Of a stretch of DNA of 47,925 bases, positions 30,177-43,691 are shown one piece after another; position 1 is the first letter of the stretch, and every line of letters starts with the position of its first letter. Source of the DNA: a virus (lineage: Duplodnaviria; Heunggongvirae; Uroviricota; Caudoviricetes). The stretch is taken from the IMG/VR virus record IMGVR_UViG_3300045988_143263; one strand, given 5' to 3'. Both the position numbers and the translations under genes were made by a program. A model generated the notes under the pieces. The model was not told where the DNA came from and did not search any database. It saw only the letters and a program-made list of their open reading frames with translations.

Positions 30177-30421
30177 GCCGTTTATCCGCTAAAATCCCCT
30201 CGCTTGTGCAAGCAAGTGGGCCTCGGTTTGTATCCACGGCACCCTGTGGGTATGAATGACTGTCGTCAGGTCGCAACTGACGGCGGTCGCCCACCTTCCA
30301 GTAATAAAAAAGCCACCAGCATTAACTCCACAGCGAGCTGGAGTTAATGAGGCAGCTTTGGTTTGCGCATTATCGCAGCCCCTGATTAGCACAAGAGCTG
30401 CTGTAATGCGTTACGCAGGGA

Positions 30422-30739
30422 TCAAACGGAGGCAGCCGTTTCGTCGTCTTCAAGTACCGCGCCTTCTGGCAAATCAACACAGGCAAAAACAGGGCAGCCA
30501 GGATAACGATCATCTTCCATCGCAATCAGCATCGACTCACCGAACCACTCTGTGGTAGCACGGCCATCAGCCGCCTGATAGTGAATCAGATACTGGTTTT
30601 CGCCATTTGCATACTGAGCACGGGCTTGAACTTCTCCCCACTCTTCACTGATACGCATTGTTACCAGTTGGGATAATTCAAACTTAAACGGAACAGACTC
30701 TGCACCAATGGCAATCGGTTTATCTTCTTTCTTTTCCAT
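30422..30739 (-). CDS. hypothetical protein (start trimmed to MEKKEDK)
   Basis: Internal ATG at 30739 preceded by an AGGTGA RBS and an upstream terminator; ORF-track start at 30808 would run through that terminator. Confidence 0.35.
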   Translation of the reverse strand: MEKKEDKPIAIGAESVPFKFELSQLVTMRISEEWGEVQARAQYANGENQYLIHYQAADGRATTEWFGESMLIAMEDDRYPGCPVFACVDLPEGAVLEDDETAASV

Positions 30740-30750
30740 AACATCACCTG

Positions 30751-30780
30751 AAAATAAAAAGCCCCGCGACACCGCGAGGC
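30751..30780 (-). terminator. rho-independent terminator
   Basis: Minus-strand hairpin gcctcgcg-gtgt-cgcggggc followed by UUUUUAUUUU. Confidence 0.45.
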
Positions 30781-30937
30781 TGTAAGAGTTACTTTCGATA
30801 TAAATCAAGGCGCATTTGCTCCCGCTTAAGCCGAAAAGCTCTCTGCGCCACTAAGATGCGCCACAAGACACCAGCAATAACCACCAGCGAGATACAAAAA
30901 CACACGGCCACAACCATCAGAAAAATGCCAAGACCAT

Positions 30938-31144
30938 TCATGAAACTATCCATTCTTCAATGAATATCTCCAGTAATGTCAAGAGATACGCCGTCCCCAG
31001 CGCGGTTCCTACCGATATAGCTAAGACAAACCTCAAAGATAACGAGGTGTCTTTCGCTTTTCTCCAGACGTAAGCGCCAGCCAGAAATACCAACAAATCT
31101 CTTATTGGAAGCGGAAACCAGAACAAATCACTCGGCAAGTCCAC
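30938..31144 (-). CDS. small putative membrane protein
   Basis: 68-aa ORF with two hydrophobic segments. Confidence 0.3.
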   Translation of the reverse strand: MDLPSDLFWFPLPIRDLLVFLAGAYVWRKAKDTSLSLRFVLAISVGTALGTAYLLTLLEIFIEEWIVS

Positions 31145-31146
31145 GG

Positions 31147-31602
31147 TTATATCCTTCCATTCATTTTTATCGGATGACCAGATAGCCTTACGCAGTTGAG
31201 CTGTAAAGCTCCGGTATCAACTAAATAATCAACTAACATGATTAGAGATTCATATTCAGCCAGATAGCTAACCTGACGCATTCGACCGCCGTTGTTCTCC
31301 AGAATGTCGGCCACCTTTGCAGCCAACTCGCTTAGACAGGAGAACTTATTCCCATATATCGTTTTATACTCGCGCTTCTGGCATTCTTCGGCTTGCGGCT
31401 GGTTATCGAGAACTATCAGCGACCGATAACTATCAAGGAAGTCCACAATCTCATTCAGGCACTCTTTGGCTGCCTCATCGTGACTTTTTCCGTATGCTTC
31501 ATGGAGGACTTTCATCCTCATCATTGCTCCGTCACATATAGTCGAAAGCGCGTAAAGCACATCACTAACCGCCATTTCTTTTTCGGTGCTTGTCGAAGGC
31601 AT
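31147..31602 (-). CDS. hypothetical protein
   Basis: 151-aa ORF co-oriented in an operon-like array. Confidence 0.35.
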   Translation of the reverse strand: MPSTSTEKEMAVSDVLYALSTICDGAMMRMKVLHEAYGKSHDEAAKECLNEIVDFLDSYRSLIVLDNQPQAEECQKREYKTIYGNKFSCLSELAAKVADILENNGGRMRQVSYLAEYESLIMLVDYLVDTGALQLNCVRLSGHPIKMNGRI

Positions 31603-31676
31603 CCCATGTTCTCCTTTGTCTGGATGTAAAAAAGCCCCGGCAATTGCCGAGGCTCGTTGTTCGTTATCGTTACGGT

Positions 31677-31877
31677 TTAATGCTCGCGTCGTCCGGCGAC
31701 AACTTCGGATTTGTATTTCAGGTCGCCCAGCAAGAATTGCAGTTTAAGCATCTTTGCCGCTGTGTAGTTCCCTGATTCCACAACCTCTTTCATGAGGTCA
31801 TAAACGGTCGCTACATCATCAGCCAGGAACTCTTTGCGTTGCTGCTCAGTCGCACGTTTGAAGGAAATACGCATCAC
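31677..31877 (-). CDS. hypothetical protein
   Basis: 66-aa ORF overlapping the upstream gene by 4 nt. Confidence 0.3.
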   Translation of the reverse strand: MMRISFKRATEQQRKEFLADDVATVYDLMKEVVESGNYTAAKMLKLQFLLGDLKYKSEVVAGRREH

Positions 31878-32143
31878 TCATCATCTCCTGCCGCACATAC
31901 AACCTCACAAAAAACATCAGCGGAATGTTTCTCCTTGAACGAATGACGCTCAAAACCGCACTCAATATCAGGCGCAAAAACATCCACCACATACGGTCTT
32001 TCAGAATGTTTGTTTTCCCAACGATAAACCGTAGTGACGTTGAAATGTTTTAACGCTTCACGGAACTCAACGCTGCCCGTCAGGTTTTTTGAGGTCAGGT
32101 ATTGCAGGAGGTTTTTTACTACTTCACGGTCTTGTACTTTCAT
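31874..32143 (-). CDS. hypothetical protein (first gene downstream of a repeated promoter-leader cassette)
   Basis: 89-aa ORF; ATG at 32141..32143 directly follows the conserved leader …ccggagataacccg. Confidence 0.4.
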   Translation of the reverse strand: MKVQDREVVKNLLQYLTSKNLTGSVEFREALKHFNVTTVYRWENKHSERPYVVDVFAPDIECGFERHSFKEKHSADVFCEVVCAAGDDE

Positions 32144-32255
32144 CGGGTTATCTCCGGTTTAACCAGGGCGGGTATCGCTCGGTTTCGGGTATAACCATAG
32201 GAAATTTTTTCCCATCCGTAAAGCACTTTTTATATAAATCTATAATTATATAATT
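32144..32255 (-). promoter_or_regulatory. repeated promoter-leader cassette, copy A
   Basis: Near-identical to 38527..38645 and to window end plus start; minus strand reads TATATAATTATAGATTTATATAAAAAGTGC-TTTACG-17 nt-TATGGT-leader with GGAGA RBS. Confidence 0.5.
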
Positions 32256-32843
32256 CTATGACACTTGCCAGAGAGCATCATGCAACTGGATACCTCCGTT
32301 GCACTGGTTGCCCCAGCCATGCCAGCCATCAGGTAAATCACCGCGAGCAAACAGCTCAATACGAGGAACATCGCCTAACAGCTTTACCAGCTTGTCACGG
32401 ACCACATCAGGCTTCCGAGAATGCTCCAGACGAGGCGATGTAAACGACTGAATGATCCCCGCATCAAGACGTGTCGGTAGTTTGCCTTTCACTGCAAACA
32501 AGCAATCTTCACTGTTTGCACGAGTCATATGCCCCATCCCCATCACCAGCTTATCTGGTTGTCGGCTACCACATTTGTTCCATGTGAAGCCCTTCATGGT
32601 CATCAGCCTGAATCCCCATGCTTTCACCACCAGCAACGCTTCTTCTGGCTGAGTCGGAACCCACCACATGGCCAACAAACACGATTCAGGATTAGCAAGC
32701 TGCCAGACAGGAATACGAGCAATATCCTCAGCTTTCATCGTTGGATACTTAAAACCAGCGCCACGATTCCCATCCTTACACTTGTCTTTGTATTCCCAGG
32801 GGGGATCTGCATAAATCAGATTAAACAATGCAATTGCCTCCAT
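32256..32843 (-). CDS. MT-A70 family N6-adenine DNA methyltransferase
   Basis: 195 aa; catalytic DPPW motif (LIYADPPWEY). Confidence 0.75.
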   Translation of the reverse strand: MEAIALFNLIYADPPWEYKDKCKDGNRGAGFKYPTMKAEDIARIPVWQLANPESCLLAMWWVPTQPEEALLVVKAWGFRLMTMKGFTWNKCGSRQPDKLVMGMGHMTRANSEDCLFAVKGKLPTRLDAGIIQSFTSPRLEHSRKPDVVRDKLVKLLGDVPRIELFARGDLPDGWHGWGNQCNGGIQLHDALWQVS

Positions 32844-33151
32844 GTTAGTTGTGTCTCCGGCGCTTATCTCCGGCAGTCATAACGCTGGCCAGCTCTACAG
32901 CAAACACAACGAAAAGGGCACTAACCAGACTGATTAATGCCCTTGCCTGTTGTGTGCCGGATATCGCCCGACAACGCTGTTTTGGTAACACGGCTACAGT
33001 TCCGTGCCGCTCCAGCTTTTACCCCTTTGCGGATAACAGGCCCTGCCTGTAACTTAGCCCCACGTTCGCCCGAAATGCGCACCAGGCACGCATAAAGATG
33101 AGCACGAAGGAAGTAACTCCACCGCGCTTATCTTTATGTGTGAGAGTGAAT

Positions 33152-33227
33152 TGGTGGCCCCTACCGGATTTGAACCGATGACCGTGCGATTATGAGTCGC
33201 CTGCTCTAACCACTGAGCTAAGGGGCC
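33152..33227 (-). tRNA. tRNA with CAU anticodon (tRNA-Ile2/Met-like)
   Basis: 76 nt; cloverleaf with acceptor GGCCCCU/AGGGGCC, GCUC/GAGC D-stem, anticodon loop CUCAUAA, GGUUCAAAUCC T-arm and 3' CCA; 5' half resembles E. coli ileX from memory. Confidence 0.8.
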
Positions 33228-33396
33228 ATATTTGATCTGTTTGTCTGGTGTGGCGCCGCGCACGAAAATCCCAGCCAATAAATTCAGGATTTTTGGGCGC
33301 GGCGGCATATCAGACAAACATGGTTGATGCGTGCGCTAATGAGAAAAGCGCATAGAATGTTGTAACTATATATTTATATAATTATAGAAATATATA

Positions 33397-33606
33397 TTAC
33401 TTTGGACAGTTGATTTCCCATGCCCTGTTATGAGCCAGAATATCTTTCTTTGTCTGGCGGTCCATAACATCGATATCGTGATCAGTCAGGTAGATGGGCT
33501 TTACCCAATCACAGGCGGTATCAACCACCACCGGGACGCTTCCACGACTCCCGCAGCTCGCGATCAACATCGTCATCAGCCATATGGTTAACACTCTGCT
33601 GTACAT
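33397..33606 (-). CDS. Rz1-like outer-membrane lipoprotein spanin (o-spanin)
   Basis: 69 aa; signal peptide with lipobox LIASC; overlaps the 3' end of the Rz-like gene in another frame. Confidence 0.55.
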   Translation of the reverse strand: MYSRVLTIWLMTMLIASCGSRGSVPVVVDTACDWVKPIYLTDHDIDVMDRQTKKDILAHNRAWEINCPK

Positions 33607-34338: not shown

Positions 34339-34621
34339 GATTAAATCCTAATGCGTCAACTATCCGCGCCAGATTGCCCCTGAAATACAGAACAACGATG
34401 CAGATAATCAGATTTCCAATAACCACCAGCCAGTGGGATTCTTGATAAAGACCGAACACATAACGGAAGGGAACATTGGCGTATACAATGACGTAGATAT
34501 AAGCCAGAAAGGAAACAAATGGACGATGCCTGGAGTCTTTCCGTCGATAAAGCATCAGCGCCATTACTATTACTGTGCAAAGCACCGCATTAATCAGTGC
34601 TGACGGGTCACTGCTTACCAT
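34325..34621 (-). CDS. lysis-associated membrane protein (possible second holin/antiholin)
   Basis: ~98 aa from internal Met; three hydrophobic segments; between holin and endolysin. Confidence 0.35.
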   Translation of the reverse strand: MVSSDPSALINAVLCTVIVMALMLYRRKDSRHRPFVSFLAYIYVIVYANVPFRYVFGLYQESHWLVVIGNLIICIVVLYFRGNLARIVDALGFNHDQR

Positions 34622-35003
34622 TTGAACCCCCTCCACGTAAGCGGGAAAGCATTCCAAAGATGCTACCGAGATCCTGGCTGTTTACGAACGTGAGGATTTT
34701 AATTGTCAATGCAGCCACAATAACCGCACCAAGCGCATCAAGAGGTCGATCGTTGTAGCTGGTCCATTTGGCAAGAAATGAGCCAACTAACGGCGCTCCA
34801 ATCACTCCAACAATGAACGATGTAAAGAAATAGCCAATCAGCTTGAGACGGCTAATATTCACCGCTGTAGCAACATAGAAAACAGCGCCAGCAAATGCCC
34901 CGAATACAACGCCGTAATCAATACCAGTTGCAATACCAAAAACGCTGGCACCCATCAGGCCACCAGCAGCAACGGCCGTACCGGAAATTGGTTCTGCTGA
35001 CAT
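34608..35003 (-). CDS. putative holin (start trimmed to MSAEP)
   Basis: ~131 aa, Gly/Ala-rich TM helices; ATG at 35001..35003 has a GAGGA RBS and sits 12 nt after a terminator, so the ORF-track start at 35051 is rejected. Confidence 0.5.
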   Translation of the reverse strand: MSAEPISGTAVAAGGLMGASVFGIATGIDYGVVFGAFAGAVFYVATAVNISRLKLIGYFFTSFIVGVIGAPLVGSFLAKWTSYNDRPLDALGAVIVAALTIKILTFVNSQDLGSIFGMLSRLRGGGSNGKQ

Positions 35004-35015
35004 TGAAATCCTCGT

Positions 35016-35047
35016 TAAAAAAAAGCCCCGCCGAAAAAGGCAGGGCT
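35016..35047 (-). terminator. rho-independent terminator immediately upstream of the lysis cassette (tR'-like)
   Basis: Minus-strand hairpin AGCCCUGCC-UUUUUC-GGCGGGGCU followed by U8. Confidence 0.55.
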
Positions 35048-35553
35048 TCATAAAGCAACAAATTACGCGGTAATCGCTTAACGCAGTTTTACTACGTTAA
35101 ATGAAACACTACACCCAGTTACCACCTAAAACAAGGTTTTCCCATAAAAAAACCTTCATATCGTGGTTAATCGATCAATAAAAAAGCAATGTTCAACTTT
35201 TTACCAACCGAACATCCCGACCAGGACTTCCATAATATTCGCCGATATGCCACTGCTTAAGTTGAGTAATCTTCTCCAACTTAACTCCCATAGAGTCCAG
35301 TTTCTGCCATGTTTTCGGTTGTATGTGCTTCATTACCCGCTCTGAATATCTGAATACTGCTCGTAAGCGCATGGTTTCTCACTACAGCTTATATAAGTGG
35401 TTTTTCCAGCGGTTTTGCGCCGCGCTGCGCTTATCTTTGATTCCCTCTCTGGCAATTCCAGAATATAAGTACAACACCACACGGCGATTGCTAACTCTCA
35501 ACCACTGGCTGGGATAGCAACGTCTGTATACACGGGAAATAAGCATCTTTGCT

Positions 35554-35841
35554 TTACGGTTTTTCATCGTTTGCCCCCTGCTTTTCTGCCCTTAACACCA
35601 TGTGAGAACCATCATCCAGCTCCCAATTGATTTCACCGCCTTCTGCCATGACAAGATGCCAAACGAGTTGTGCGGCCTCGTTGGTTACATCACGACCGCG
35701 ATCATTGCCTACACGGCGTTTTGTTCCGTCACCTAAATCGCGCATTTTGGCCAACACGATGGTTTTTGATAGCGGTGAAAAACCAAGCTGTAGCCGTGCG
35801 GAATTACTCACTGGTTGCCCCCTGAATACGTTTAAACTCAA
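35554..35841 (-). CDS. hypothetical protein
   Basis: 95-aa ORF in a co-oriented accessory array. Confidence 0.3.
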   Translation of the reverse strand: MSLNVFRGQPVSNSARLQLGFSPLSKTIVLAKMRDLGDGTKRRVGNDRGRDVTNEAAQLVWHLVMAEGGEINWELDDGSHMVLRAEKQGANDEKP

Positions 35842-36481
35842 TTACCCATACCCACGGGTTAGATAGCCAGTTCTCTTGCCCGTAAATACCGCGCCAGATA
35901 TCACCAAAGCCAACGCGATAAACAGCTTCAGGTGGCGTAATCTTGTACGTCGCCGGAGTTGCGCCTTCTGCTTTAGCATCTGCCTCGCTCATGTCATGCA
36001 GCCGTTCCACACGCACGTCGGTAATTTCCAGCAAAATACGCGAAGCCCAGCGCGGCATGTGAATTGATGGACACCACCCGCCATCAAACTTTTCATTCAC
36101 AGTGTGAGGTTTCCAGTCAGTATCATCGGGTATCGACCACAGGCCGTAATCACCAGGCTTTTGCTCGCAACTGGCCCGATAAATCCTTGCTGCGTTCTTC
36201 TCATCGCCACGACAAAGGTTGTCGTTCCAGTCCACACTGCAACCATCCTCATTGCCTAATATCGCCCACGCTTCACGGACCCATATGCGATCACCAACGT
36301 TACCGAACGGGCATAAACCATGTTCCGGTGCATCCATAACGTGGGTATAGACACCATTGCGTTTCTTTGTCGGTTTACGGATAACCAGGCAGTTATCGGC
36401 CCTGACATTTTTTACAGGTCGGCGAGTCTGCGTTTTCCTTCCTTCGAGGATGGCCCGGACCATCTCATCGTTAAAAATCAT
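35804..36481 (-). CDS. hypothetical protein with ASCH-like N-terminal motif
   Basis: Start placed at MIFNDEMVRAILEGRKTQTRRP (the GRKT.T.R signature resembles ASCH/PUA-like domains); Cys/His-rich C-terminal region. Confidence 0.35.
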   Translation of the reverse strand: MIFNDEMVRAILEGRKTQTRRPVKNVRADNCLVIRKPTKKRNGVYTHVMDAPEHGLCPFGNVGDRIWVREAWAILGNEDGCSVDWNDNLCRGDEKNAARIYRASCEQKPGDYGLWSIPDDTDWKPHTVNEKFDGGWCPSIHMPRWASRILLEITDVRVERLHDMSEADAKAEGATPATYKITPPEAVYRVGFGDIWRGIYGQENWLSNPWVWVIEFKRIQGATSE

Positions 36482-36492
36482 GCCGCGCTCTT

Positions 36493-36804
36493 TCACTCTC
36501 CCTCCCACGTTTTCAGACTTTCACCACAAAACGGGCAAAATGAGACTCGAATAGGTGATTTAGAAAACTCACCGGAACGCAACATCACCAAATCAGGTCC
36601 ACGGGTTAAACTCTCATTCCAGATTTTGTATAGCAGTAAGCCTTTTCTTACTGAGCATTCAGCATCGTGCTCAAGAGACTTTGCCAATGCAGCACACGGC
36701 TCTATTCGATTGCCATTAATTCGACAATTTGATCCACTCACTTCAACTCCTCCCGACGACGTTCCTGAAGCTCTAGCATTGCGGCTCGGAAATCCTGCCA
36801 CCAT
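36493..36804 (-). CDS. hypothetical protein with C-terminal CxxC zinc-ribbon-like motif
   Basis: 103-aa ORF ending …SFCPFCGESLKTWEGE. Confidence 0.3.
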   Translation of the reverse strand: MVAGFPSRNARASGTSSGGVEVSGSNCRINGNRIEPCAALAKSLEHDAECSVRKGLLLYKIWNESLTRGPDLVMLRSGEFSKSPIRVSFCPFCGESLKTWEGE

Positions 36805-37103
36805 TCCTCATCTGCAACGGGGGTGTTCCGCTCCAGCACCTTGCCCGCATCGGCGATCAGGTTTGCCAGACTCTTGTCTGAAATCTTCGTTACCGGAGTC
36901 GTTGGTGGCTCAACCTGCCCGATAGGTTTTATCGTGCTCAAAAGGAGGCGACGGCGGGAAAGTGGTGCCCCACAACGACGGCCATCTTCCTTGCGATATG
37001 TTTCTTTCGGACCAACACACCAGGTTGTCGGCGTTTCGCGCAACTTCACTCTTTTCTCACCATCATTGGTAATGATTATTCCGGTATGGGTTTTGATGCT
37101 CAT
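36738..37103 (-). CDS. hypothetical protein
   Basis: 121-aa ORF. Confidence 0.3.
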   Translation of the reverse strand: MSIKTHTGIIITNDGEKRVKLRETPTTWCVGPKETYRKEDGRRCGAPLSRRRLLLSTIKPIGQVEPPTTPVTKISDKSLANLIADAGKVLERNTPVADEEWWQDFRAAMLELQERRREELK

Positions 37104-37381
37104 GCCACAGCCCCTCTCAACGGCTTAACTTTGGCTAATAAGGTGTTAAACAACATGGAGTTAGGATTCATGCCAAATGGCAATTCCGGTTTAGCGGAGT
37201 AGTACAGGCAACCATTTATTTTCCTGGTTGTTATCTGTCCTTCGGCAACCATGCTTCTCAGTCTGCAACGCATAGAGTTCTGCGACACACCAATGTGCTC
37301 CGCGATTACGTCCACTTTTGAACATGGGTGATCGGTCAGGAAATTAATCACATCTTGGGGGTTAATAATTTTGCGTTTCAT
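37100..37381 (-). CDS. putative winged-helix DNA-binding protein
   Basis: ~93 aa from MKRKIINPQD; wHTH-like segment VDVIAEHIGVSQNSMRCRLRSMVAEGQI. Confidence 0.35.
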   Translation of the reverse strand: MKRKIINPQDVINFLTDHPCSKVDVIAEHIGVSQNSMRCRLRSMVAEGQITTRKINGCLYYSAKPELPFGMNPNSMLFNTLLAKVKPLRGAVA

Positions 37382-37420
37382 TGTCGAGGCGTCCTTATAC
37401 ATTTATATAAATATATAATT

Positions 37421-37440
37421 CTATATACGGCGGGAGACGT
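37421..37440. terminator. GC-rich hairpin downstream of 37459..38526 (possible terminator/attenuator)
   Basis: cggcggga-gacg-tcccgccg, 8-bp perfect stem; no clean U-tract. Confidence 0.3.
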
Positions 37441-37458
37441 CCCGCCGTAGGCTTACTG

Positions 37459-38526
37459 TCAGGCTTTCAATAGCGATTCTTTTAAATATCGGGCATCAGC
37501 CAGGGCGTTTGGAGTAATCTTGCGAACCCATGCATTACGGGTTGGACTCCACTTAAAGGCGCGTGATTTAAGCAGCGAACGAATGTTTGCCTCTGGTTTG
37601 CCAGGGAAATAAAACAGGATGCGGTTATCCTCTGGATCTATCTCCATAGAAAAGCCGTCGTATTCTTCGCGCTGTGCTCCTGTTACAGACTTGACCGATT
37701 CAAGCTCCTTAATACGGCTCTGTAGTCGTTTGATTTCGGCGTTATTGTTGCTCAGTGCGTATGAAGGGAATCCGATGCGCCCACAGAAATCTCCGGCCAG
37801 TAACTCTTTGGCTTCGCTTTCTGTAAACCTGAGATCGATTAATGCAGAAAGCTGCTGTATTTGGTCTTTTTTGTATTTGCGAATGGCCTTATTTGCGGCC
37901 TTCATTTTGACGTGTGACTTCATGCAGCCTTGCAGCTTACGAAGCAACTTAAATAGCGCATCAGGATCATCAGACGAAATTCCATTACGCCCAACACCTG
38001 CGGCTTTGCTCTCGTAGTGTGATGCTTTACTTTCGCATTCAACAAACGCTTTTCTGAATAACGCATCAGCTTTAGACAAACGGCGGCGATGGCCTTTCGC
38101 GCTATAATGGTCAACTAAAATCGGCTGGCCTAACGGGATCACATCCAACAGGTCATGCGCTCGCTTATGCGCTACCGCACCTTCTTTTCTGGCTTTTTCT
38201 GCACGAGCAATATATCGGGCAAGACGCGCGTTCTGGCGTTCCTGATAGGTGTTTACGTAATCATCTCCGCGCTGCTGCTGTTCAAGCCATGCTTTGCGCA
38301 GATCTTCTGTTACGTCCACCAGCTCCGCAGGGATACAACCTGTTTGGGCTTCATAAGAGTAACCATCCTCATAGATGCGCCCATCGTCTTCAACAAAGAA
38401 AAAGGTTTCGTGCTCATCGCTTTTGACCATACGACCATTAACATGGCGTAATAGGTAGCCAGTATCAGTGCTCAACAGGCTGTTAGGGTTGTTGATCCAG
38501 TCAGAAATAATTACTTGTTTATTCAT
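37459..38526 (-). CDS. DUF3560-like phage protein (start trimmed to MNKQVIISD)
   Basis: ~355 aa; ATG at 38524..38526 directly follows the conserved leader of the repeated cassette, which the ORF-track N-terminal extension would read through. Confidence 0.45.
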   Translation of the reverse strand: MNKQVIISDWINNPNSLLSTDTGYLLRHVNGRMVKSDEHETFFFVEDDGRIYEDGYSYEAQTGCIPAELVDVTEDLRKAWLEQQQRGDDYVNTYQERQNARLARYIARAEKARKEGAVAHKRAHDLLDVIPLGQPILVDHYSAKGHRRRLSKADALFRKAFVECESKASHYESKAAGVGRNGISSDDPDALFKLLRKLQGCMKSHVKMKAANKAIRKYKKDQIQQLSALIDLRFTESEAKELLAGDFCGRIGFPSYALSNNNAEIKRLQSRIKELESVKSVTGAQREEYDGFSMEIDPEDNRILFYFPGKPEANIRSLLKSRAFKWSPTRNAWVRKITPNALADARYLKESLLKA

Positions 38527-38647
38527 CAGATTTCTCCGGTTTAACCAGGGCGGGTATCGCTCGGTTTCGGGTATAACCTTAGGAAATTTTTTCCCACCTG
38601 TAAAGCACTTTTTATATAAATCTATAATTATATATTTATAGATTTTC
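38527..38647 (-). promoter_or_regulatory. repeated promoter-leader cassette, copy B (immediately downstream of Q-like gene)
   Basis: -35 TTTACA (rc of 38599..38604), 17-nt spacer, -10 TAAGGT (rc of 38576..38581), AT-rich upstream motif, ~45-nt leader with GGAGA RBS. Confidence 0.5.
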
Positions 38648-38696
38648 CGATGTTCCCGATGCCTACAAATCACCAAAACAGCTCAAAATGACACTT

Positions 38697-39074
38697 TCAC
38701 TCTCTTCGTTTTTTCAAATAGTCGACAACATACGCCCTGGCTTTTGCCAGCTTCCGGCGATACTGTCTGAGACTAAGAGAAAGGGCGTGGGCTTTATCAA
38801 TATGCGGTGCATTTATGTCGAGGCCCCGAATCTCCCACGCCCCGTATTCAATTCTGACAACCAGCGCCGCAGTCTCATCAACTACCGTGAGGGCCGTCAC
38901 CGCTCCCTCGATACTGGTTTCCAGTGAGTCATTTGGTGCGCCGCCCCCTCCGGTAAACTGGCAGCGCGTAACCATCATCATTTCTAACATCGACGCGAAA
39001 CCGCTACGGGCGTTGCAGCCATTGCGCACCCACAGCGCCCATAGCTCAAACAAGCTATCCAGATCGCGTCTCAC
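38697..39074 (-). CDS. putative antitermination protein Q-like (small Q family)
   Basis: 125 aa; N-terminal pattern LFELWALWVRNG…SGFASML resembles small phage Q-type antiterminators (from memory); position in a nin-like region. Confidence 0.4.
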   Translation of the reverse strand: MRRDLDSLFELWALWVRNGCNARSGFASMLEMMMVTRCQFTGGGGAPNDSLETSIEGAVTALTVVDETAALVVRIEYGAWEIRGLDINAPHIDKAHALSLSLRQYRRKLAKARAYVVDYLKKRRE

Positions 39075-39077
39075 TGT

Positions 39078-39410
39078 TCAGATCTCCCGTATCGTGACGG
39101 GATAAAGCGCCTCTACCTGCTTTTTCTTCATGATGTAGACGTCTGTTCGTACACCTTTAGTGTCGACACAATCAATCGTCCCATCGTCATAAAACACCAT
39201 GAAATCAAGTTTATAAACGACACCACCTGGCAGATGAAAAGGCACCTGCATAAGAAACGTCACAACGCGGCCAGCTTTTCTCAGTAGCTTCAGTTCGCAG
39301 TAGTAATCAGCCTCTTTTTTGCTATCAAAAGCGATATCATCGACAACCGTTTTTTTATTGCCGTATTTGCTTTTCCTTGTCGCTGGTTTGCGAAAGCCGG
39401 TATATCTCAT
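39078..39410 (-). CDS. DUF1064-like phage protein
   Basis: 110 aa; N-terminus …SKYGNKKTVVDDIAFDSKKEADYYCELK typical of DUF1064 nin-region proteins. Confidence 0.5.
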   Translation of the reverse strand: MRYTGFRKPATRKSKYGNKKTVVDDIAFDSKKEADYYCELKLLRKAGRVVTFLMQVPFHLPGGVVYKLDFMVFYDDGTIDCVDTKGVRTDVYIMKKKQVEALYPVTIREI

Positions 39411-40556: not shown

Positions 40557-41047
40557 TCCTCAAGCCTCCCAAGTGCTGAACGCCGGGCGTTGCTAATCTC
40601 CTTATGAATCAGCTCGATATCGCTGGAATCTTTATTCTTAAACTCCAGCATGGCAATCGCATCACGAACCTCTGAAACGGTTACGTGTGAGTGTTTCCAG
40701 CGAGCAATGAATCGCGGACCGCGTAGATTGCAACGCTCCGCAGGCATCCCCAGCTCAGAGAAAACCGCTTTCAACCTTGATAAGCAGTTAACAGGGAGAT
40801 TCCCTTTGATCTTGTTCTGCCGAACCGATGTGCCATCGCTACGCTGGCGCTGACGTTCGGCAAAATCTGCCGCCCATTGCTGGACGTTAATCCGGCCTTC
40901 CGAATACGCTACCAGCAGCGTCAGGTTATCCGCACGAGGGAATCTCTCGAAGCGATACCAGGCACCAATCAGTGATGACGTAAAGCCAAACTTTCTGGCA
41001 ACACCAATTTGGCCTCCATTTTCGTCAACCCACTCCTGAAAGGTCAT
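40553..41047 (-). CDS. Cro/CII-like early regulatory protein
   Basis: 164 aa; N-terminal HTH-like segment ENGGQIGVARKFGFTSSLIGAWYRF; divergent from the CI-like repressor gene. Confidence 0.45.
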   Translation of the reverse strand: MTFQEWVDENGGQIGVARKFGFTSSLIGAWYRFERFPRADNLTLLVAYSEGRINVQQWAADFAERQRQRSDGTSVRQNKIKGNLPVNCLSRLKAVFSELGMPAERCNLRGPRFIARWKHSHVTVSEVRDAIAMLEFKNKDSSDIELIHKEISNARRSALGRLEE

Positions 41048-41065
41048 TTAACGAACTCCAGTTAA

Positions 41066-41183
41066 ACCACGATATGTGGTATTAAAACCACATATCGTGA
41101 GTTTTTCAATGGGCGAAACAAAAAATAACCTTCTATTTGTGGTCCACCTCTCGTCTTACCATGTGAAAACCACTAAATGTGGT
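41066..41183. promoter_or_regulatory. immunity operator/promoter region with ACCAC-N5-GTGGT sites
   Basis: ACCACGATATGTGGT (41066..41080), ACCACATATCGTGAG (41087..41101), ACCACTAAATGTGGT (41169..41183); TATAAAT -10-like box at 41188..41194. Confidence 0.5.
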
Positions 41184-41220
41184 AATGTATAAATAACCCA
41201 CCATTCACGATTGATGAGAC

Positions 41221-41877
41221 ATGAAAAGCAACGACGAGAACATCAAGAAAGAAATAGGTCTGCGCATTCAGACTCTACGGAAACAATCCGGCATGACTGC
41301 CGGAGATCTCCAGCAAGTCACTGGAATAGGCTTAAGCACCTTGCAGAACTATGAGGCCGGATTAAGACAACCATCTATACCTGCCATCAAGAAAATCGCG
41401 CACGCCCTGAAAGCATCAGCGCCTTATATCGCGTGCTTAACAGATAACCCGTTCCCACCCCAGAATACTAACGCTCCTGTTATTCCTGGGCTTGTAGCTA
41501 TAAAAAATGACATAGCATCGCACGCCGGAGAAAAGCCAGTGCTGGCGATAGAACAGGAGATTCTACGAAGCAAGAACATCAACCCATCGTCTCTGTCAGT
41601 TCTCCAGAGCAACGATGAGTTAATGTCACCAACAATATCCCCTGGCTCCCAAGTCCTGATTGATACAGACGATACAGAGATTCATGAGGGGATCTATGCC
41701 CTTGAAGACAGAAATGGCCTGGTTGTTTTGAGGCACTGTAGAGTCATACCGGGTGACAATGCTGTTATGCTGTCAACCGAAAGGGATGCTGAAATGAACA
41801 CTAAGCATCTGAATAACGAGGAATTTAAGCGTTATAAAGTTCTTGGCCGCGTAGTTAGTGTTGTCAACTGGTTATGA
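41221..41877 (+). CDS. CI-like prophage repressor (N-terminal HTH, C-terminal S24 LexA-type peptidase domain)
   Basis: 218 aa; HTH TAGDLQQVTGIGLSTLQNYEAG and C-terminal S24-like fold. Confidence 0.75.
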   Translation: MKSNDENIKKEIGLRIQTLRKQSGMTAGDLQQVTGIGLSTLQNYEAGLRQPSIPAIKKIAHALKASAPYIACLTDNPFPPQNTNAPVIPGLVAIKNDIASHAGEKPVLAIEQEILRSKNINPSSLSVLQSNDELMSPTISPGSQVLIDTDDTEIHEGIYALEDRNGLVVLRHCRVIPGDNAVMLSTERDAEMNTKHLNNEEFKRYKVLGRVVSVVNWL

Positions 41878-41969
41878 TACACAGCACGGCGAAAGCCGTG
41901 CATTTCTACGCTCAAAAAAACCACATTTTGTGGTTTTGACAACATGTAAAAGTATAAAAGAGGCTACGC

Positions 41970-42344
41970 ATGGAATTACATACAGCCAATAAAAACGAAA
42001 CTCTGATCACTGCTGGAATCGAAATCCAAGCGTTGAACATAGCGATTGAGTGTATGTTATGCCAAATCATTGATAATGAGAAAGATATCGACTGGATAGA
42101 ATCTATCCTTCATCTGGCATCAGAACAAAAAGTCTGCCTCAAAACGGCCTTACAATACGATGTGCCAGCGGTATCGAAGCTGTGCCAGCCATTGATGGCA
42201 TATAACAGGGCTATTATTTCTGTATGCCTCATGATTCTTGATGAAAACACCCCTCTTAGCGACCGCTCAGAAGCTGCTCTAACCCTCTCACGTAAACAGC
42301 GACAGCTAGCAAATCAACTGATATCAACGATAGCTGACCTCTGA
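41970..42344 (+). CDS. hypothetical protein downstream of repressor
   Basis: 124-aa ORF with AAGAGG RBS. Confidence 0.4.
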   Translation: MELHTANKNETLITAGIEIQALNIAIECMLCQIIDNEKDIDWIESILHLASEQKVCLKTALQYDVPAVSKLCQPLMAYNRAIISVCLMILDENTPLSDRSEAALTLSRKQRQLANQLISTIADL

Positions 42345-42360
42345 CTGCAAGCGGGCTAAC

Positions 42361-42475
42361 GCCCGCTTATATGATTATAGATTTATATAATTATATAAAA
42401 CGCTTTCCATCCGCCAAAAAGTTGGTTATGCTTACCTCGTTCTATAAATATAGATTTATAGAATTATATAACCAA
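42361..42475. repeat. AT-rich iteron cluster upstream of parA (candidate centromere/operator)
   Basis: ATGATTATAGATTTATATAATTATATAA and ATAAATATAGATTTATAGAATTATATAA blocks. Confidence 0.5.
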
Positions 42476-42494
42476 ACACATGGAGTCTCGACAA

Positions 42495-43148
42495 ATGACT
42501 ATCTCTGTAGGTATTTTCAACGGAAAAGGCGGCGTAACCAAATCAACAATTGCCCGTGCTTTAGCAGTTGCTTATGCAAAGGCTGGCTGGAATGTATGCC
42601 TGATCGATATGGATGTGCTTAACGGAACGGTAACACGTTGGGTACAACGCAGAATGGCCAACAATATCGAACCAGCAATCGCGGCGCAGCCGTGCGGCAC
42701 ACCATCACAAGTCCAGAAAATCATCGAATCAGAAGTATACGACCTGGTTATCGTCGATGGCGGTGCCTACGCATCTGAATCAGTACCGAAGCTCTCTGAA
42801 TTTCTGGATATGGTTATTTTGCCAACCAGATTCTCTACCGATGACCTGGAAACCACCGTTAACACAGCTCACGGCATCGTTAAAAAGGGTGTACCAATCA
42901 AGAAAATTTGCATGGTGTTTTCCGGCGCGGCTGAAAACGAAGCTGACTATATTGAAGCCCAAGAGTACCTGGCTAATACGCCATACTTTGTTGTCGATAA
43001 GTACATTCCCCACAAGCCAGCTCTGAGCAAAGCTCAGGATAAGGGCTTAAGCCTCATTGAGTGCTCATACGTTGCGCCACGCAAAAAGGCAGACGACGTT
43101 ATTCAGGGGATTATCAACCAGCTTGAGGCTCTGACTACTGCCGCGTAA
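42495..43148 (+). CDS. parA: ParA-family partition ATPase
   Basis: Deviant Walker A box NGKGGVTKST ten residues from the chosen start; start set at the second ATG (GGAG RBS). Confidence 0.8.
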   Translation: MTISVGIFNGKGGVTKSTIARALAVAYAKAGWNVCLIDMDVLNGTVTRWVQRRMANNIEPAIAAQPCGTPSQVQKIIESEVYDLVIVDGGAYASESVPKLSEFLDMVILPTRFSTDDLETTVNTAHGIVKKGVPIKKICMVFSGAAENEADYIEAQEYLANTPYFVVDKYIPHKPALSKAQDKGLSLIECSYVAPRKKADDVIQGIINQLEALTTAA

Positions 43149-43180
43149 TATATAATTATAGTTTTATAGATTTATATAAG
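43147..43180. repeat. AT-rich iteron block between parA and the ParG-like gene
   Basis: ATATATAATTATAGTTTTATAGATTTATATAA. Confidence 0.45.
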
Positions 43181-43191
43181 AGGGGATACAC

Positions 43192-43440
43192 ATGGCCGCA
43201 CCATCAAAACCACCAAAGAAGAACAGCAAAGGCGTACCGCCATCGATCGAACAACCGCAGGTTTTCGACCCGACTGAAACGCCAACCAGAACCAAATCAG
43301 GTGGGGCACAAATGGCGTTTAACGTCGACCCTGAATTTAAACGCGAGTACAAAACGTTCGCCAGCTCAATGGATATGTCATTGAAAGAAGTGCTGACAAA
43401 GTCTTTTGAGTTACTCAAGGCTCAATACAACCAGAAGTAA
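43192..43440 (+). CDS. ParG-like ribbon-helix-helix centromere-binding protein
   Basis: 82 aa; disordered basic N-terminus and C-terminal RHH-like segment MAFNVDPEFKREYKTFASSMDMSLKEVL; directly downstream of parA. Confidence 0.5.
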   Translation: MAAPSKPPKKNSKGVPPSIEQPQVFDPTETPTRTKSGGAQMAFNVDPEFKREYKTFASSMDMSLKEVLTKSFELLKAQYNQK

Positions 43441-43502
43441 GAGAAGGTGACGGCCTCCAGCGCCAACTGTTGGCCGTCGCGACACAACAAGGGGAATTTG
43501 TT

Positions 43503-43652: not shown

Positions 43653-43662
43653 ATTCAGCCAT

Positions 43663-43686: not shown

Positions 43687-43691
43687 AATCG

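What the first reader, a model, noticed from the sequence alone, without database searches (positions are those of the whole stretch)
35382..38526. Accessory block between the Q-like gene and the lysis terminator: DUF3560-like, winged-helix, zinc-ribbon and ASCH-like ORFs
Cassette copy B directly downstream of the Q-like gene drives a ~355-aa DUF3560-like protein, followed by a hairpin (37421..37440), a wHTH protein, two small ORFs (one ending in CPFCGESL), a 226-aa protein with an ASCH-like GRKTQTRR N-terminus, and further small ORFs, before the tR'-like terminator and holin. The block sits where lambdoid phages carry moron or nin-type cargo, and its functions are unknown.
Basis: partly seen in the sequence, partly recalled or inferred. 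Interest (0 to 1): 0.5.

Follow-up and report, generated by a model that had tools for sequence, protein, structure and literature searches.

The report
Swappable cargo operon before phage lysis genes
This is a real but fairly ordinary stretch of ten small, mostly uncharacterised "cargo" genes that a 48-kb phage-plasmid of E. coli carries between its late-gene regulator and its lysis genes; relatives swap parts of it, and its lead gene belongs to a family typical of the first-entering region of conjugative plasmids.

Summary
On the minus strand, between a Q-like gene (39074-38697) and a strong intrinsic terminator (35049-35022) ahead of the holin, lie ten tightly packed ORFs. They are a 355-aa DUF3560 protein, a 93-aa winged-helix protein, 121-aa and 82-aa ORFs, a 230-aa PmgT/ASCH-like protein, DUF7446, and 61-aa and 59-aa ORFs.

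The window is a whole circular phage-plasmid, with near-identical copies in 63 plasmids, including one in E. coli ATCC 25922. The Q-like call is supported: a family profile hits phage 21 Q at E=3.7e-5.

No ORF falls in a characterised replication, recombination or defence family. Relatives keep the head (DUF3560, wHTH, p121) and the tail (p59) and swap the middle. More distant relatives carry quite different cargo after the Q-like gene.

DUF3560 is the YdbA family, which is enriched in conjugative-plasmid leading regions and is fused elsewhere to ArdC-N. Its fold gave no functional match.

Best reading: a mosaic accessory operon in the promoter-proximal part of a Q-controlled late unit, probably with establishment or anti-defence roles (inferred, not shown). 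It is ordinary in kind. The repeated promoter cassette and the TATA-box arrays around it are more interesting than the ORFs.

The parts
38697..39074 (-). Q-like gene (125 aa), a distant Q21-type antiterminator candidate encoded immediately upstream of the block
   Evidence: phrog_5285 E=3e-58. A 113-member family profile hits phage 21 Q (PDB 6JNX/6P18) at E=3.7e-5. The six best Foldseek PDB hits of the model are all Q21, but with weak statistics (E 0.3-0.65, TM 0.42-0.52). Of the 113 family members, 18 have sub-threshold PF06530 hits and 20 have ECF-sigma hits.
38522..38643 (-). Promoter/leader cassette copy B. It contains a TATA-box array (38640-38615), -35 TTTACA (38604-38599), a 17-nt spacer holding the inverted repeat GGAAA-N3-TTTCC (38594-38582), -10 TAAGGT (38581-38576), a leader of about 45 nt, SD GGAGA (38537-38533) and ATG 38526
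   Evidence: Three copies 95-100% identical (A 47871-47925 plus 1-64, B, C 32140-32260). It is conserved upstream of DUF3560 in a Klebsiella relative whose proteins are only 70% identical. The inverted repeat is found 4 times against 0.08 expected. Promoter function is inferred; the -10 is too weak for the consensus scan.
37459..38526 (-). DUF3560 (YdbA-family) protein, 355 aa: an N-terminal beta-rich domain of about 90 aa plus a DUF3560 module of about 265 aa
   Evidence: PF12083 E=5e-31. AlphaFold model pLDDT 91.2. No informative fold match. Homologues are fused to ArdC-N or to LPD29/LPD30. Homologues sit in leading-region contexts.
37426..37449 (-). Conserved GC-rich hairpin after DUF3560, at most a weak or partial terminator
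   Evidence: -19.4 kcal/mol, z -3.85, no U-run. The stem GGCGGGA/TCCCGCC is conserved in Klebsiella relative L004 with a different loop.
37396..37425 (-). Array of four 8-bp-phased TATA boxes immediately upstream of the wHTH ribosome-binding site
   Evidence: The pattern gives 26 hits against 0.16 expected in the window, clustered at 8 loci. The same position is conserved in L004.
37100..37381 (-). Winged-helix (MarR/FaeA-like) protein, 93 aa
   Evidence: phrog_1687 E=5e-32. Pfam HTH_24, FaeA and TrmB hits are sub-threshold. It is 100% conserved in E. coli relatives and 47% identical in Klebsiella.
36738..37103 (-). p121, unknown function; its start overlaps the wHTH stop (ATGA)
   Evidence: phrog_7520 E=1e-81, made of two sub-modules (phrog_1226 and phrog_14672). 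Only the N-terminal part is conserved in Klebsiella.
36493..36741 (-). p82, a small Cys-containing ORF ending in CPFCGESL; GTG start overlapping the p121 stop (GTGA); variable among relatives
   Evidence: phrog_4030 E=9e-37. Present in only 1 of 6 relatives compared. About 85% nucleotide identity to lambdoid and Stx phages next to ead/Eae genes.
35804..36496 (-). PmgT-family, ASCH-like protein (230 aa from GTG 36496; 226 aa from ATG 36484)
   Evidence: phrog_874 E=7e-90. P1 pmgT is 92% identical at nucleotide level over 519 nt. PF04266 scores 16.9 bits against a cutoff of 21.2, and 26 of 37 homologues match below threshold. PGAP names the orthologues 'ASCH domain-containing'.
35554..35811 (-). 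DUF7446 protein (85 aa; the longest ORF starts at 35841)
   Evidence: PF24233 E=2e-17 and phrog_1578 E=3e-33. Absent from some relatives. Present in the cargo of distant relative L019.
35382..35567 (-). p61, unknown function, variable
   Evidence: phrog_1380 E=1e-30. 100% nucleotide identity over 172 nt to phiV10 and O157 typing phage 9. 54-91% identity among relatives.
   Evidence: phrog_9594 E=9e-46. 97-100% identity in E. coli relatives and 60% in Klebsiella.
35022..35049 (-). Strong intrinsic terminator separating the block from the lysis genes
   Evidence: 11-bp stem with 7 GC pairs, U8 tail, -21.8 kcal/mol, z -4.5.
34608..35003 (-). First holin of the lysis cassette (context; it marks the downstream boundary)
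   Evidence: PF16931 E=2e-37 and phrog_198. It is followed by a second holin, a GH108 endolysin and an Rz-like ORF.

Best explanation
The block is the promoter-proximal, pre-terminator part of one of three late transcription units of a ~48-kb circular, myovirus-type phage-plasmid.

Each unit starts with the same ~125-nt cassette. The cassette holds a TATA-box array, a weak sigma-70-like promoter with an inverted repeat in its spacer, a conserved leader and a ribosome-binding site.

A distant Q21-type antiterminator is encoded just upstream of copy B. It most likely loads onto RNA polymerase at these cassettes. Transcription would then pass the hairpin after DUF3560 and the strong terminator at 35049-35022 and reach the holin and endolysin. 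Likewise it would pass two strong terminators in unit C to reach the packaging and morphogenesis genes.

The ten ORFs between cassette B and the terminator form one translationally coupled operon of mosaic accessory cargo. It has a conserved head (DUF3560/YdbA-family protein, wHTH protein, p121) and a conserved tail (p59). The middle is exchangeable (p82, PmgT/ASCH-like, DUF7446, p61) and is traded with P1 and with lambdoid and other enterobacterial phages.

The most likely role is non-essential host-interaction or establishment (anti-defence-type) functions acting on nucleic acid. DUF3560 is the family enriched in the leading regions of conjugative plasmids and fused elsewhere to the ssDNA-binding ArdC-N domain. 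The PmgT-like protein carries a PUA-like (ASCH) nucleic-acid-binding core.

Shown: the ORFs, their family memberships, the mosaicism, the repeated cassette and the terminators. Inferred: promoter activity, Q-dependent read-through, and any biochemical function.
For: Element identity: RepA, ParA, a toxin-antitoxin pair, a CI-like repressor and a P2-like tail. There are 63 related plasmids of 46-52 kb, including one in E. coli ATCC 25922, and three Yersinia phage genomes.

Gene families.

Single operon:
- Gene starts overlap the preceding stops by 4, 4, 2, 8 and 14 nt from wHTH through p61 (sequence).
- No sigma-70-like promoter is found in 34900-39200, against 5.9 +/- 2.2 expected.

Cassette: three copies, conserved in a relative whose DUF3560 protein is only 70% identical.

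Q-type regulator: profile hit to Q21 at E=3.7e-5, and Q21 is the top fold hit.

Terminators sit downstream of the cassettes and ahead of the essential late genes in both unit B and unit C.

Cargo nature:
- Presence/absence matrix among relatives.
- Alternative ORFs in the same slot: ead/Ea22-like, DUF551 and others.
- Distant relatives with the same Ref-DUF1064-Q backbone carry instead a C5 DNA methylase plus other ORFs, or only small ORFs.

Link of DUF3560 to establishment or anti-defence:
- Fusions with ArdC-N and with LPD29/LPD30.
- Neighbours are SSB, an orphan methylase, KorA, a SprT-like protein, toxin-antitoxin pairs and relaxase/coupling protein genes.
- In pO157 the gene sits between the antirestriction and ssb genes.
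- Family 28 'DUF3560/YdbA', with 1913 members, appears in the supplementary gene-family table of Samuel et al. 2024, the study of gene families enriched in plasmid leading regions (PMC11541004, supplementary file 3).
- Klebsiella CRISPR spacers target the family (PMC6965323).

No replication, recombination or defence family was found.
Against: - No function was demonstrated for any ORF.
- Leading-region genes act on entering ssDNA during conjugation, a situation that a dsDNA-injecting phage does not share.
- Here the gene sits in what looks like a late unit rather than an early one.
- The Q assignment rests on a distant profile hit and statistically weak fold matches. The family looks equally like ECF sigma region 4, so the protein could be an activator rather than an antiterminator.
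- The -10 element is weak, and the consensus scan calls no promoter there.
- The inverted repeat in the promoter spacer also occurs in the promoter of an HTH gene near repA. The cassettes may therefore be repressor-controlled, which leaves the timing of expression open.
Confidence: 0.6

Rival explanations
1. The conserved head of the block (DUF3560 plus wHTH, perhaps p121) is a regulatory module of the phage-plasmid rather than cargo. The wHTH protein would bind the 8-bp-phased TATA-box arrays, one of which lies directly upstream of its own gene. Through them it would tune the late cassettes and the parA operon, for example to couple or time lytic transcription against plasmid maintenance.
For: - An array lies immediately upstream of the wHTH ribosome-binding site, and further arrays lie upstream of all three cassettes and around parA (26 hits against 0.16 expected).
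- The positions are conserved in the Klebsiella relative.
- DUF3560 and wHTH are the parts of the block conserved across E. coli and Klebsiella members.
Against: - A more distant relative (L019) has related arrays at parA and just after its Q-like gene, but no wHTH or DUF3560 homologue in the 14 kb available.
- L019 does keep a homologue of the 82-aa ParG-like ribbon-helix-helix protein, which is therefore the better candidate array binder.
- DUF3560 also occurs widely in conjugative plasmids that have no such arrays.
Confidence: 0.15
2. The block is a nin-like DNA replication/recombination module that supports lytic replication. It would continue the Ref-nuclease and DUF1064 genes that precede the Q-like gene.
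For: - It lies directly downstream of a Ref-family HNH nuclease and a DUF1064 (resolvase-like) gene.
- The C-terminal half of the DUF3560 protein hits phrog_19458, which is labelled 'primase' (E=4e-37).
- The element has no recognisable lytic replication genes apart from the plasmid RepA.
Against: - No primase, helicase, polymerase, SSB or recombinase domain appears in any of the ten ORFs with Pfam, NCBIfam or PDB searches.
- The 'primase' label most likely comes by annotation transfer from ArdC-N/TraC-type fusions of DUF3560 (and the author's own knowledge that ArdC-N occurs in TraC primases).
- The slot holds unrelated genes in relatives, which is not expected for an essential replication module.
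Confidence: 0.1
3. The proteins are virion-associated or morphogenetic, as implied by the P1 name PmgT ('putative morphogenetic function'). Alternatively they are packaged and injected with the DNA, like P1 Dar proteins or polyvalent proteins, to protect it on entry.
For: - The block lies in a late-type unit shared with the lysis genes.
- DUF3560 co-occurs with LPD29/LPD30 and ArdC-N, domains of polyvalent proteins proposed to enter the cell with the DNA (PMC5512222).
- Public records name some orthologues 'morphogenetic protein'.
Against: - The P1 label is only 'putative'.
- P1 pmgT sits behind sigma-70 promoters with a C1 operator (Op88), meaning it is repressor-controlled and not a late gene.
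- The ASCH core points to nucleic-acid binding.
- The middle ORFs are dispensable among relatives.
- No structural-protein family was hit.
Confidence: 0.1
4. The block is largely decaying or non-functional filler: spurious ORFs between the regulator and the lysis genes.
For: Functions are unknown, and several ORFs are short (59-95 aa).
Against: - Every ORF matches a PHROG family at E between 1e-30 and 1e-234.
- The ORFs are densely packed with overlapping starts and stops.
- Head and tail ORFs are conserved at protein level in a diverged relative.
- The PmgT family has more than 8000 members.
Confidence: 0.03

Closest known systems
Q - pR' - tR' - cargo - S/R/Rz late region of lambdoid phages (lambda, 21, 82, Stx phages such as 933W)
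   Same: A small Q-type regulator gene is followed by a promoter with a conserved early-transcribed region, by intrinsic terminators and then by the lysis genes. Non-essential cargo sits between regulator and holin, as stx and its neighbours do in Stx phages (established knowledge). The Q-like family profile hits phage 21 Q.
   Different: - The promoter/leader is present in three near-identical copies, each heading a separate unit.
- The strong terminator lies 3.5 kb downstream, after ten ORFs, not about 200 nt after the promoter. The cargo is therefore upstream of the main terminator, not downstream of it.
- The element is a circular plasmid-prophage with a P2-like tail.
- The Q protein does not reach the Pfam PF06530 threshold.
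YdbA / DUF3560 genes of the leading regions of F-like and other conjugative plasmids and ICEs
   Same: The same Pfam family (PF12083, E=5e-31), with 44-55% identity to plasmid and ICE versions. The family is uncharacterised and keeps company with ssb, orphan methylases, antirestriction genes and toxin-antitoxin pairs.
   Different: - Here the gene is in a phage-plasmid, behind a late-type promoter cassette, with a private ~90-aa beta-rich N-terminal domain instead of ArdC-N.
- There is no ssDNA-entry step and no Frpo-type context.
- In phages of other lineages the family stands alone at about 265 aa.
Phage P1 PmgT ('putative morphogenetic function')
   Same: Same protein family (phrog_874 E=7e-90), with 92% nucleotide identity over about 520 nt. 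Same size class and same conserved N-terminal GRKTQTRR motif.
   Different: P1 pmgT is the first gene of a C1-operator-controlled pmgT-pmgU-pmgV unit. Here it is the fifth gene of a ten-gene operon and is replaceable: the Yersinia phage carries a variant with 74% amino-acid identity, and ATCC 25922 has a different ORF in that place.
ea / Ead-Ea22 ('exo-xis') accessory regions of lambdoid and P22-like phages
   Same: Runs of short, overlapping ORFs of unknown function that are exchanged as modules. The p82 and DUF7446 segments match such regions at 82-85% nucleotide identity, next to ead/Eae/EaD genes. Relatives carry ead/Ea22-like genes in this very slot.
   Different: In lambdoid phages these genes lie in the early-left (pL) operon. 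Here they lie downstream of the Q-like gene and upstream of lysis.

Membership tests
DUF3560 (Pfam PF12083; YdbA family) | Match to the family HMM above the curated gathering score | tested here: met
   107.8 bits against a cutoff of 27.2, E=5e-31, covering profile positions 2-124 of 124. The invariant motifs IPxGQPxL..H.S and F.F.GKP...R..LK..FKWSP are shared across 54 homologues.
ArdC-type antirestriction proteins | N-terminal ssDNA-binding ArdC-N domain (PF08401) and/or a C-terminal metalloprotease | tested here: not met
   No PF08401 hit in the window protein. hhalign of its N-terminal domain against the ArdC-N parts of fused homologues gives probability 0.3%. Only other DUF3560 proteins carry ArdC-N.
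ASCH domain (Pfam PF04266, PUA-like) | Match to the family HMM above the gathering score | tested here: not met
   16.9 bits against a cutoff of 21.2, E=0.011. Of 37 homologues, 26 match below threshold (best E=3.9e-4). A profile search against PDB finds nothing. A single-sequence search hits ASC-1 ASCH chains weakly (E=0.006).
ASCH domain (Pfam PF04266, PUA-like) | N-terminal GxKxxExR-type motif and a split beta-barrel core (motif recalled from memory) | tested here: inconclusive
   GRKTQTRR is nearly invariant in the family (G15, K17, T20, R21). The C-terminal LLEITDVRVERL..SE.DA.AEG segment is what aligns to the ASCH profile. No structure was predicted for this protein. PGAP names the orthologues 'ASCH domain-containing'.
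P1 PmgT family (phrog_874) | Full-length similarity to P1 PmgT and its PHROG | tested here: met
   phrog_874 E=7e-90. 91.7% nucleotide identity to P1 pmgT over 519 nt. More than 8000 homologues.
Q21/Q82-type antiterminators (Pfam PF06530) | Sequence membership: match to the family HMM or to a solved member | tested here: inconclusive
   The window protein has no PF06530 hit. A 113-member profile of its family hits phage 21 Q (6JNX/6P18) at E=3.7e-5 over residues 4-89. Of the 113 members, 18 have sub-threshold PF06530 hits and 20 have ECF-sigma hits.
Q21/Q82-type antiterminators (Pfam PF06530) | Q21-like fold | tested here: inconclusive
   The six best of 350,542 PDB chains are all Q21, but at E 0.3-0.65 and TM 0.42-0.52. 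The model has pLDDT 77.5, with residues 21-46 below 50.
Q21/Q82-type antiterminators (Pfam PF06530) | Loads at a promoter-proximal binding element and pause site, and makes RNA polymerase read through terminators | not testable with these tools
   The anatomy is compatible: conserved promoter/leader cassettes, each followed by terminators ahead of essential late genes. No functional data.
Winged-helix (MarR-like) transcription regulators | Match to a wHTH family model | tested here: inconclusive
   phrog_1687 'MarR family' E=5e-32. Pfam HTH_24, FaeA and TrmB hits are all below their cutoffs. PDB hits NolR and GntR at E 0.2-0.9. PGAP calls it 'helix-turn-helix domain-containing'.
Zinc-ribbon proteins | Two CxxC (or CxxH) pairs forming a knuckle pair | tested here: not met
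   p82 has a single CPFC near its C-terminus. The other three cysteines are not in CxxC spacing (translation). No Pfam or NCBIfam hit.
DUF7446 (Pfam PF24233) | Match above the gathering score | tested here: met
   63.4 bits against a cutoff of 24.1.
Morons (autonomous prophage cargo genes) | Own promoter and terminator flanking the gene, allowing expression from the repressed prophage | tested here: not met
   No sigma-70-like promoter inside the block (0 found against 5.9 expected). The genes overlap and share the cassette promoter and one terminator. Expression in the carrier state was not tested.
Known anti-phage defence systems (PADLOC-DB) | Match to any defence-protein model | tested here: not met
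   No hit for nine of the ten ORFs. The wHTH gives a non-significant SoFic match (E=0.006).
Intrinsic (Rho-independent) terminator | GC-rich stem-loop followed by a U-run | tested here: met
   35049-35022: 11-bp stem, U8, -21.8 kcal/mol, z -4.5. The hairpin at 37449-37426 fails the U-run criterion.

The most novel reading that the evidence does not exclude
The block may be a phage-plasmid counterpart of a conjugative-plasmid leading region: a set of establishment and anti-defence genes led by a YdbA/DUF3560 protein. It is placed upstream of the terminator that guards the lysis genes. It could therefore be transcribed from the cassette promoter without Q, in the carrier state or immediately after entry, while lysis stays locked.

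Its output may also be tied to plasmid partition. The same ParG-like TATA-box arrays flank parA, all three late cassettes and the wHTH gene.
Probability: 0.15. Interest if true: 0.6.

Novelty: new member of a known kind. Interest (0 to 1): 0.3.

Why it matters
As it stands this is a well-delimited example of a familiar thing: a mosaic accessory-gene slot in a temperate phage.

Its practical value has three parts:
1. It places a YdbA/DUF3560 gene in a small, inducible phage-plasmid. [quoted passage not shown] That gives a convenient genetic handle on the family.
2. It shows gene flow between conjugative plasmids, P1-type phage-plasmids and lambdoid phages into a single slot.
3. The regulatory anatomy around the block is unusual for a Q-type system and would repay transcript mapping. 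That anatomy comprises a triplicated Q-type promoter/leader cassette, terminators placed after accessory genes, and partition-type repeat arrays at late promoters.

Tried and rejected
[quoted passage not shown] It is not.
- **Family and structure databases.** NCBIfam and PADLOC gave nothing useful for the block. PDB sequence searches were uninformative for DUF3560, wHTH, the PmgT profile and the ParG-like protein.
- **Leader RNA.** Folding the leader gave only marginal structure (z about -2). No Rfam family lies in the block.
- **Element family.** I first guessed the element belonged to the pSLy3 phage-plasmid group. The literature shows pSLy3 belongs to the ~100-kb SSU5 supergroup, so the guess was dropped.
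- **Literature dead ends.** The Yersinia phage HQ103 paper concerns an unrelated 32-kb phage. A search for PmgT returned nothing relevant.
- **Shared translation start.** The motif CTCGACAA(A)TG at wHTH and parA is not statistically supported.
- **wHTH as array binder.** This idea was weakened by relative L019, which has arrays but no wHTH.

Full report
**What the window is.** The 47,925-bp window is an entire circular phage-plasmid.
- Near-identical 46-52-kb circular plasmids occur in E. coli and a few other enterobacteria. Thirty-three of 5,426 complete E. coli genomes hold at least 80% of the query region, and 63 PLSDB plasmids carry its ParG-like gene.
- The 48.5-kb plasmid of the reference strain E. 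coli ATCC 25922 is a member.
- Three 'Yersinia phage vB_YpM_39/41/44' genomes are 98% identical over the region.
- PGAP annotation of a relative shows RepA, ParA, a RelE/ParE toxin-antitoxin pair, a CI-like XRE/S24 repressor, a P2-like contractile tail, terminase, portal, capsid, two holins and a GH108 endolysin.
- All genes of the finding are on the minus strand.

**The observation.** Between the Q-like gene (39074-38697) and the holin (35003-34608) there are ten ORFs, every one matching a phage protein family.

| ORF | Coordinates | Length | Best family evidence |
|---|---|---|---|
| DUF3560 | 38526-37459 | 355 aa | PF12083 E=5e-31; phrog_6744 E=7e-234 |
| wHTH | 37381-37100 | 93 aa | phrog_1687 'MarR family' E=5e-32 |
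| p121 | 37103-36738 | 121 aa | phrog_7520 E=1e-81 |
| p82 | 36741-36493 | 82 aa | GTG start, ends in CPFCGESL; phrog_4030 E=9e-37 |
| PmgT/ASCH-like | 36496-35804 | 230 aa | phrog_874 E=7e-90 |
| DUF7446 | 35811-35554 | 85 aa | PF24233 E=2e-17 |
| p61 | 35567-35382 | 61 aa | phrog_1380 E=1e-30 |
| p59 | 35372-35193 | 59 aa | phrog_9594 E=9e-46 |

- From wHTH to p61 each start overlaps the preceding stop (ATGA or GTGA type, overlaps of 2-14 nt; sequence).
- The hairpin after DUF3560 is at 37449-37426. It is stable (-19.4 kcal/mol, z -3.9) but has no U-run.
- The terminator at 35049-35022 is canonical: 11-bp stem, U8, -21.8 kcal/mol, z -4.5.
- No sigma-70-like promoter is called anywhere in 34900-39200, against 5.9 +/- 2.2 in shuffles.
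- No Rfam family lies in the block.

**The Q-like gene.** The 125-aa protein has no Pfam hit and only a weak NCBIfam PA0613_fam match.
- An exhaustive profile search found 130 representatives of its family.
- A profile of 113 of them hits phage 21 Q (PDB 6JNX/6P18) at E=3.7e-5, aligned on the N-terminal LELWARW motif.
- Of the 113 members, 18 have sub-threshold PF06530 hits and 20 have ECF-sigma hits.
- The six best Foldseek hits of the AlphaFold model in the whole PDB are Q21 chains, with weak statistics (E 0.3-0.65, TM 0.42-0.52).
- I accept 'distant Q21-type factor' as the best reading. A sigma-region-4-like activator is the alternative.

**The cassette.** Three copies of about 125 nt, 95-100% identical, lie at 47871-47925 plus 1-64 (A), 38643-38522 (B) and 32260-32140 (C).
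- Reading 5' to 3' on the minus strand, each copy has:
  - four 8-bp-phased TATA boxes;
  - a -35 TTTACA;
  - a 17-nt spacer containing the perfect inverted repeat GGAAA-N3-TTTCC;
  - a weak -10 (TAAGGT or TATGGT);
  - a conserved leader of about 45 nt;
  - GGAGA and then the ATG.
- The whole arrangement is conserved upstream of DUF3560 in a Klebsiella aerogenes relative whose DUF3560 protein is only 70% identical.
- Copy B heads the block and then the lysis genes.
- Copy C heads two small ORFs, then a strong terminator (31655-31632), more ORFs, a second terminator (30781-30760), and then the ParB/Srx-like, terminase and morphogenesis genes.
- Copy A heads a 126-aa ORF and an HTH gene.
- Promoters followed by accessory ORFs, and then by terminators ahead of essential late genes, is what a processive antitermination regime looks like. 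This is inference.

**The proteins: DUF3560.**
- The AlphaFold model is confident (pLDDT 91.2, pTM 0.80). It shows an N-terminal five-strand domain (residues ~10-60), a bundle of long helices carrying a highly conserved but less confident loop (IPxGQPILVxHxS, residues 130-142), and a small C-terminal alpha/beta domain.
- Homologues are mostly stand-alone ~265-aa proteins. Some carry N-terminal ArdC-N or LPD30-LPD29 domains. The window's N-terminal domain is unrelated to ArdC-N.
- Contexts of homologues are conjugative elements:
  - KorA, KorB, ParA and LPD29 in Dickeya;
  - toxin-antitoxin pairs, Rep3 and TrbC in Proteus;
  - LPD30-29, KorA, SSB, a C5 methylase, a SprT-like protein, a coupling protein and a relaxase in Pseudomonas;
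  - between the antirestriction gene and ssb in pO157 (PMC11125564).
- Some unrelated phages also carry the family.
- Samuel et al. 2024 (a study of gene families enriched in plasmid leading regions) list family 28, with 1,913 members, as 'Uncharacterized; DUF3560' with the name YdbA in their supplementary gene-family table (PMC11541004, supplementary file 3).
- Klebsiella CRISPR spacers target the family on roughly 1,000 plasmids (PMC6965323).
- Polyvalent-protein domains such as ArdC-N, LPD29 and LPD30 are proposed to act at DNA entry (PMC5512222).

**The proteins: the PmgT-like ORF.**
- It belongs to a family of more than 8,000 members named after P1 PmgT.
- In P1, pmgT is controlled by a C1 operator, not by a late promoter.
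- The ASCH assignment is sub-threshold but consistent: 26 of 37 homologues match below threshold, the GRKTQTRR motif is conserved, and PGAP names the orthologues ASCH.

**The proteins: the rest.** PADLOC and NCBIfam give nothing for any ORF.

**Cargo character.** A tblastn matrix shows three patterns.
- DUF3560, wHTH, p121 and p59 are kept in all close relatives, and in Klebsiella at 70%, 47%, 42% (partial) and 60% identity.
- p82 is present in 1 of 6 relatives. The PmgT-like ORF varies (74% in the Yersinia phage, absent in Klebsiella). DUF7446 is missing in some, and p61 is 54-91% identical.
- Relatives hold ead/Ea22-like, DUF551 and other ORFs in the same slot.

Segments of the block are shared at 82-100% nucleotide identity with P1, phiV10, O157 typing phages, and lambdoid and Stx phages next to ead/Eae/EaD genes.

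Two more distant phage-plasmids have the same XRE, early-operon, Ref, DUF1064 and Q-like backbone. After the Q-like gene they carry either only small ORFs, or a C5 DNA methylase plus other ORFs including DUF7446. The interval downstream of the Q-like gene is therefore a cargo slot, and DUF3560 is one of its alternative occupants.

**Interpretation.** The best-supported account is a mosaic accessory operon occupying the promoter-proximal, pre-terminator part of a Q-type late unit (confidence about 0.6 for this architecture-level statement). The specific suggestion that its conserved head acts in establishment or anti-defence rests on guilt by association for DUF3560 and on the nucleic-acid-binding nature of ASCH. 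It deserves about 0.3. Rivals, listed with their tests in the rival-explanations section, are:
- a regulatory module built on the wHTH protein;
- nin-like replication functions;
- virion-associated proteins;
- junk.

Timing of expression is open. The main terminator lies after the block, so the block could be transcribed without Q. However, the inverted repeat in the promoter spacer recurs in the promoter of an HTH gene near repA, which hints at a dedicated repressor.

**Verdict.** In kind it is ordinary: a new member of a known kind. Interest is 0.3. The surrounding regulatory features are the more unusual part and are recorded under things noticed in passing.

Noticed in passing
window 47871-47925 plus 1-64 (A), 38522-38643 (B), 32140-32260 (C), minus strand: A ~125-nt promoter/leader/RBS cassette in three copies, 95-100% identical, each heading a separate transcription unit. 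A drives a 126-aa ORF plus an HTH gene. B drives the cargo block and then lysis. C drives small ORFs and then packaging and morphogenesis. A triplicated late promoter is unusual for a Q-type system, which normally has one. It is conserved in a Klebsiella relative at 70% protein identity.
   Followed up: partly
window 36-55, 32233-32260, 33367-33396, 37396-37425, 38615-38640, 42368-42395, 42449-42468, 43149-43176: Arrays of 3-4 TATA boxes phased at 8 bp (about TTATAKAW repeated): 26 pattern hits against 0.16 expected. They lie upstream of the -35 of all three cassettes and of the parA promoter, directly before the RBS of parA, of the 82-aa gene and of the wHTH gene, and after the lysis genes. 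The positions are conserved in relative L004, and a variant box occurs in L019. They look like binding sites for one protein that would link partition to late promoters.
   Followed up: partly
window 43192-43440 (+): The 82-aa ORF after the type-Ib ParA has a disordered, basic, proline-rich N-terminus and a C-terminal strand-helix-helix pattern (MAFNVDPEFKREYKTFASSMDMSLKEVLTKSFELL), like ParG-type ribbon-helix-helix centromere-binding proteins. It has no Pfam or PDB hit and is restricted to this phage-plasmid family (63 plasmids). A homologue is present in L019, which has arrays but no wHTH, so it is the favoured candidate binder of the TATA-box arrays.
   Followed up: partly
window 1600-1612 and the ORF 1567-1280 (minus strand): The inverted repeat GGAAA-N3-TTTCC sits in the 17-nt spacer of all three cassettes. 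It occurs a fourth time in the spacer of a similar promoter (TTGCCA-17-TACCAT) in front of a 95-aa HTH gene downstream of repA (4 sites against 0.08 expected). That HTH protein is a candidate autoregulated repressor of the cassettes. Alternatively the repeat is the Q-binding element.
   Followed up: partly
window 31632-31655 and 30760-30781 (minus strand): Two strong intrinsic terminators lie inside the unit headed by cassette C, ahead of the ParB/Srx-like, terminase and structural genes. This is the same 'accessory ORFs, then terminator, then essential late genes' layout as in unit B.
   Followed up: partly
window 44983-45055, 45080-45168 (+), 43664-43962 (-): Rfam matches above gathering score to isrK and to the C4 antisense RNA (P1/P7 immI type), just upstream of a 380-aa ORF that corresponds to an ORF6N/Rha-type antirepressor in relatives. 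There is also a full-length ryfA-like RNA. The element thus seems to combine a CI/LexA-type repressor with a P1-like c4-ant immunity module.
   Followed up: no
window 47459-47485: A perfect 12-bp inverted repeat (CGCAAAGTGTCA N3 TGACACTTTGCG) lies between the first ORF of unit A and the following HTH gene. It has no U-run on the transcribed strand, so it looks more like an operator than a terminator.
   Followed up: no
window 33152-33227 (minus strand): A tRNA with a CAT anticodon lies between the lysis genes and the MT-A70 methyltransferase. ARAGORN calls it tRNA-Met. PGAP annotates the orthologue as tRNA-Ile, which implies a lysidine-modified CAT, while the Yersinia phage record calls it tRNA-Met.
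   Followed up: no
window 28180-30176 and further downstream in unit C (minus strand); L003 38023-41902: Three ParB/Srx-family N-terminal-domain proteins are encoded in the late unit before the terminase. They are reminiscent of the DdrB-like ParB nucleases discussed for polyvalent and injected proteins.
   Followed up: no
L020 (NZ_CP009073.1, E. coli ATCC 25922 plasmid, 48,488 bp): The widely used quality-control strain ATCC 25922 carries a member of this phage-plasmid family. It has the same Q-like, DUF3560, wHTH and p121 head but a different middle (86-aa and 214-aa ORFs and an ead/Ea22-like gene). It is a convenient experimental system.
   Followed up: yes
window 34900-39200: Sigma-70-like promoter matches are depleted on both strands (0 found, 5.9 +/- 2.2 expected). 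They are also depleted in 27000-33500 (2 against 8.8 +/- 3.4), but not in the plasmid-maintenance and immunity region 41000-47925 (11 against 10.5).
   Followed up: no
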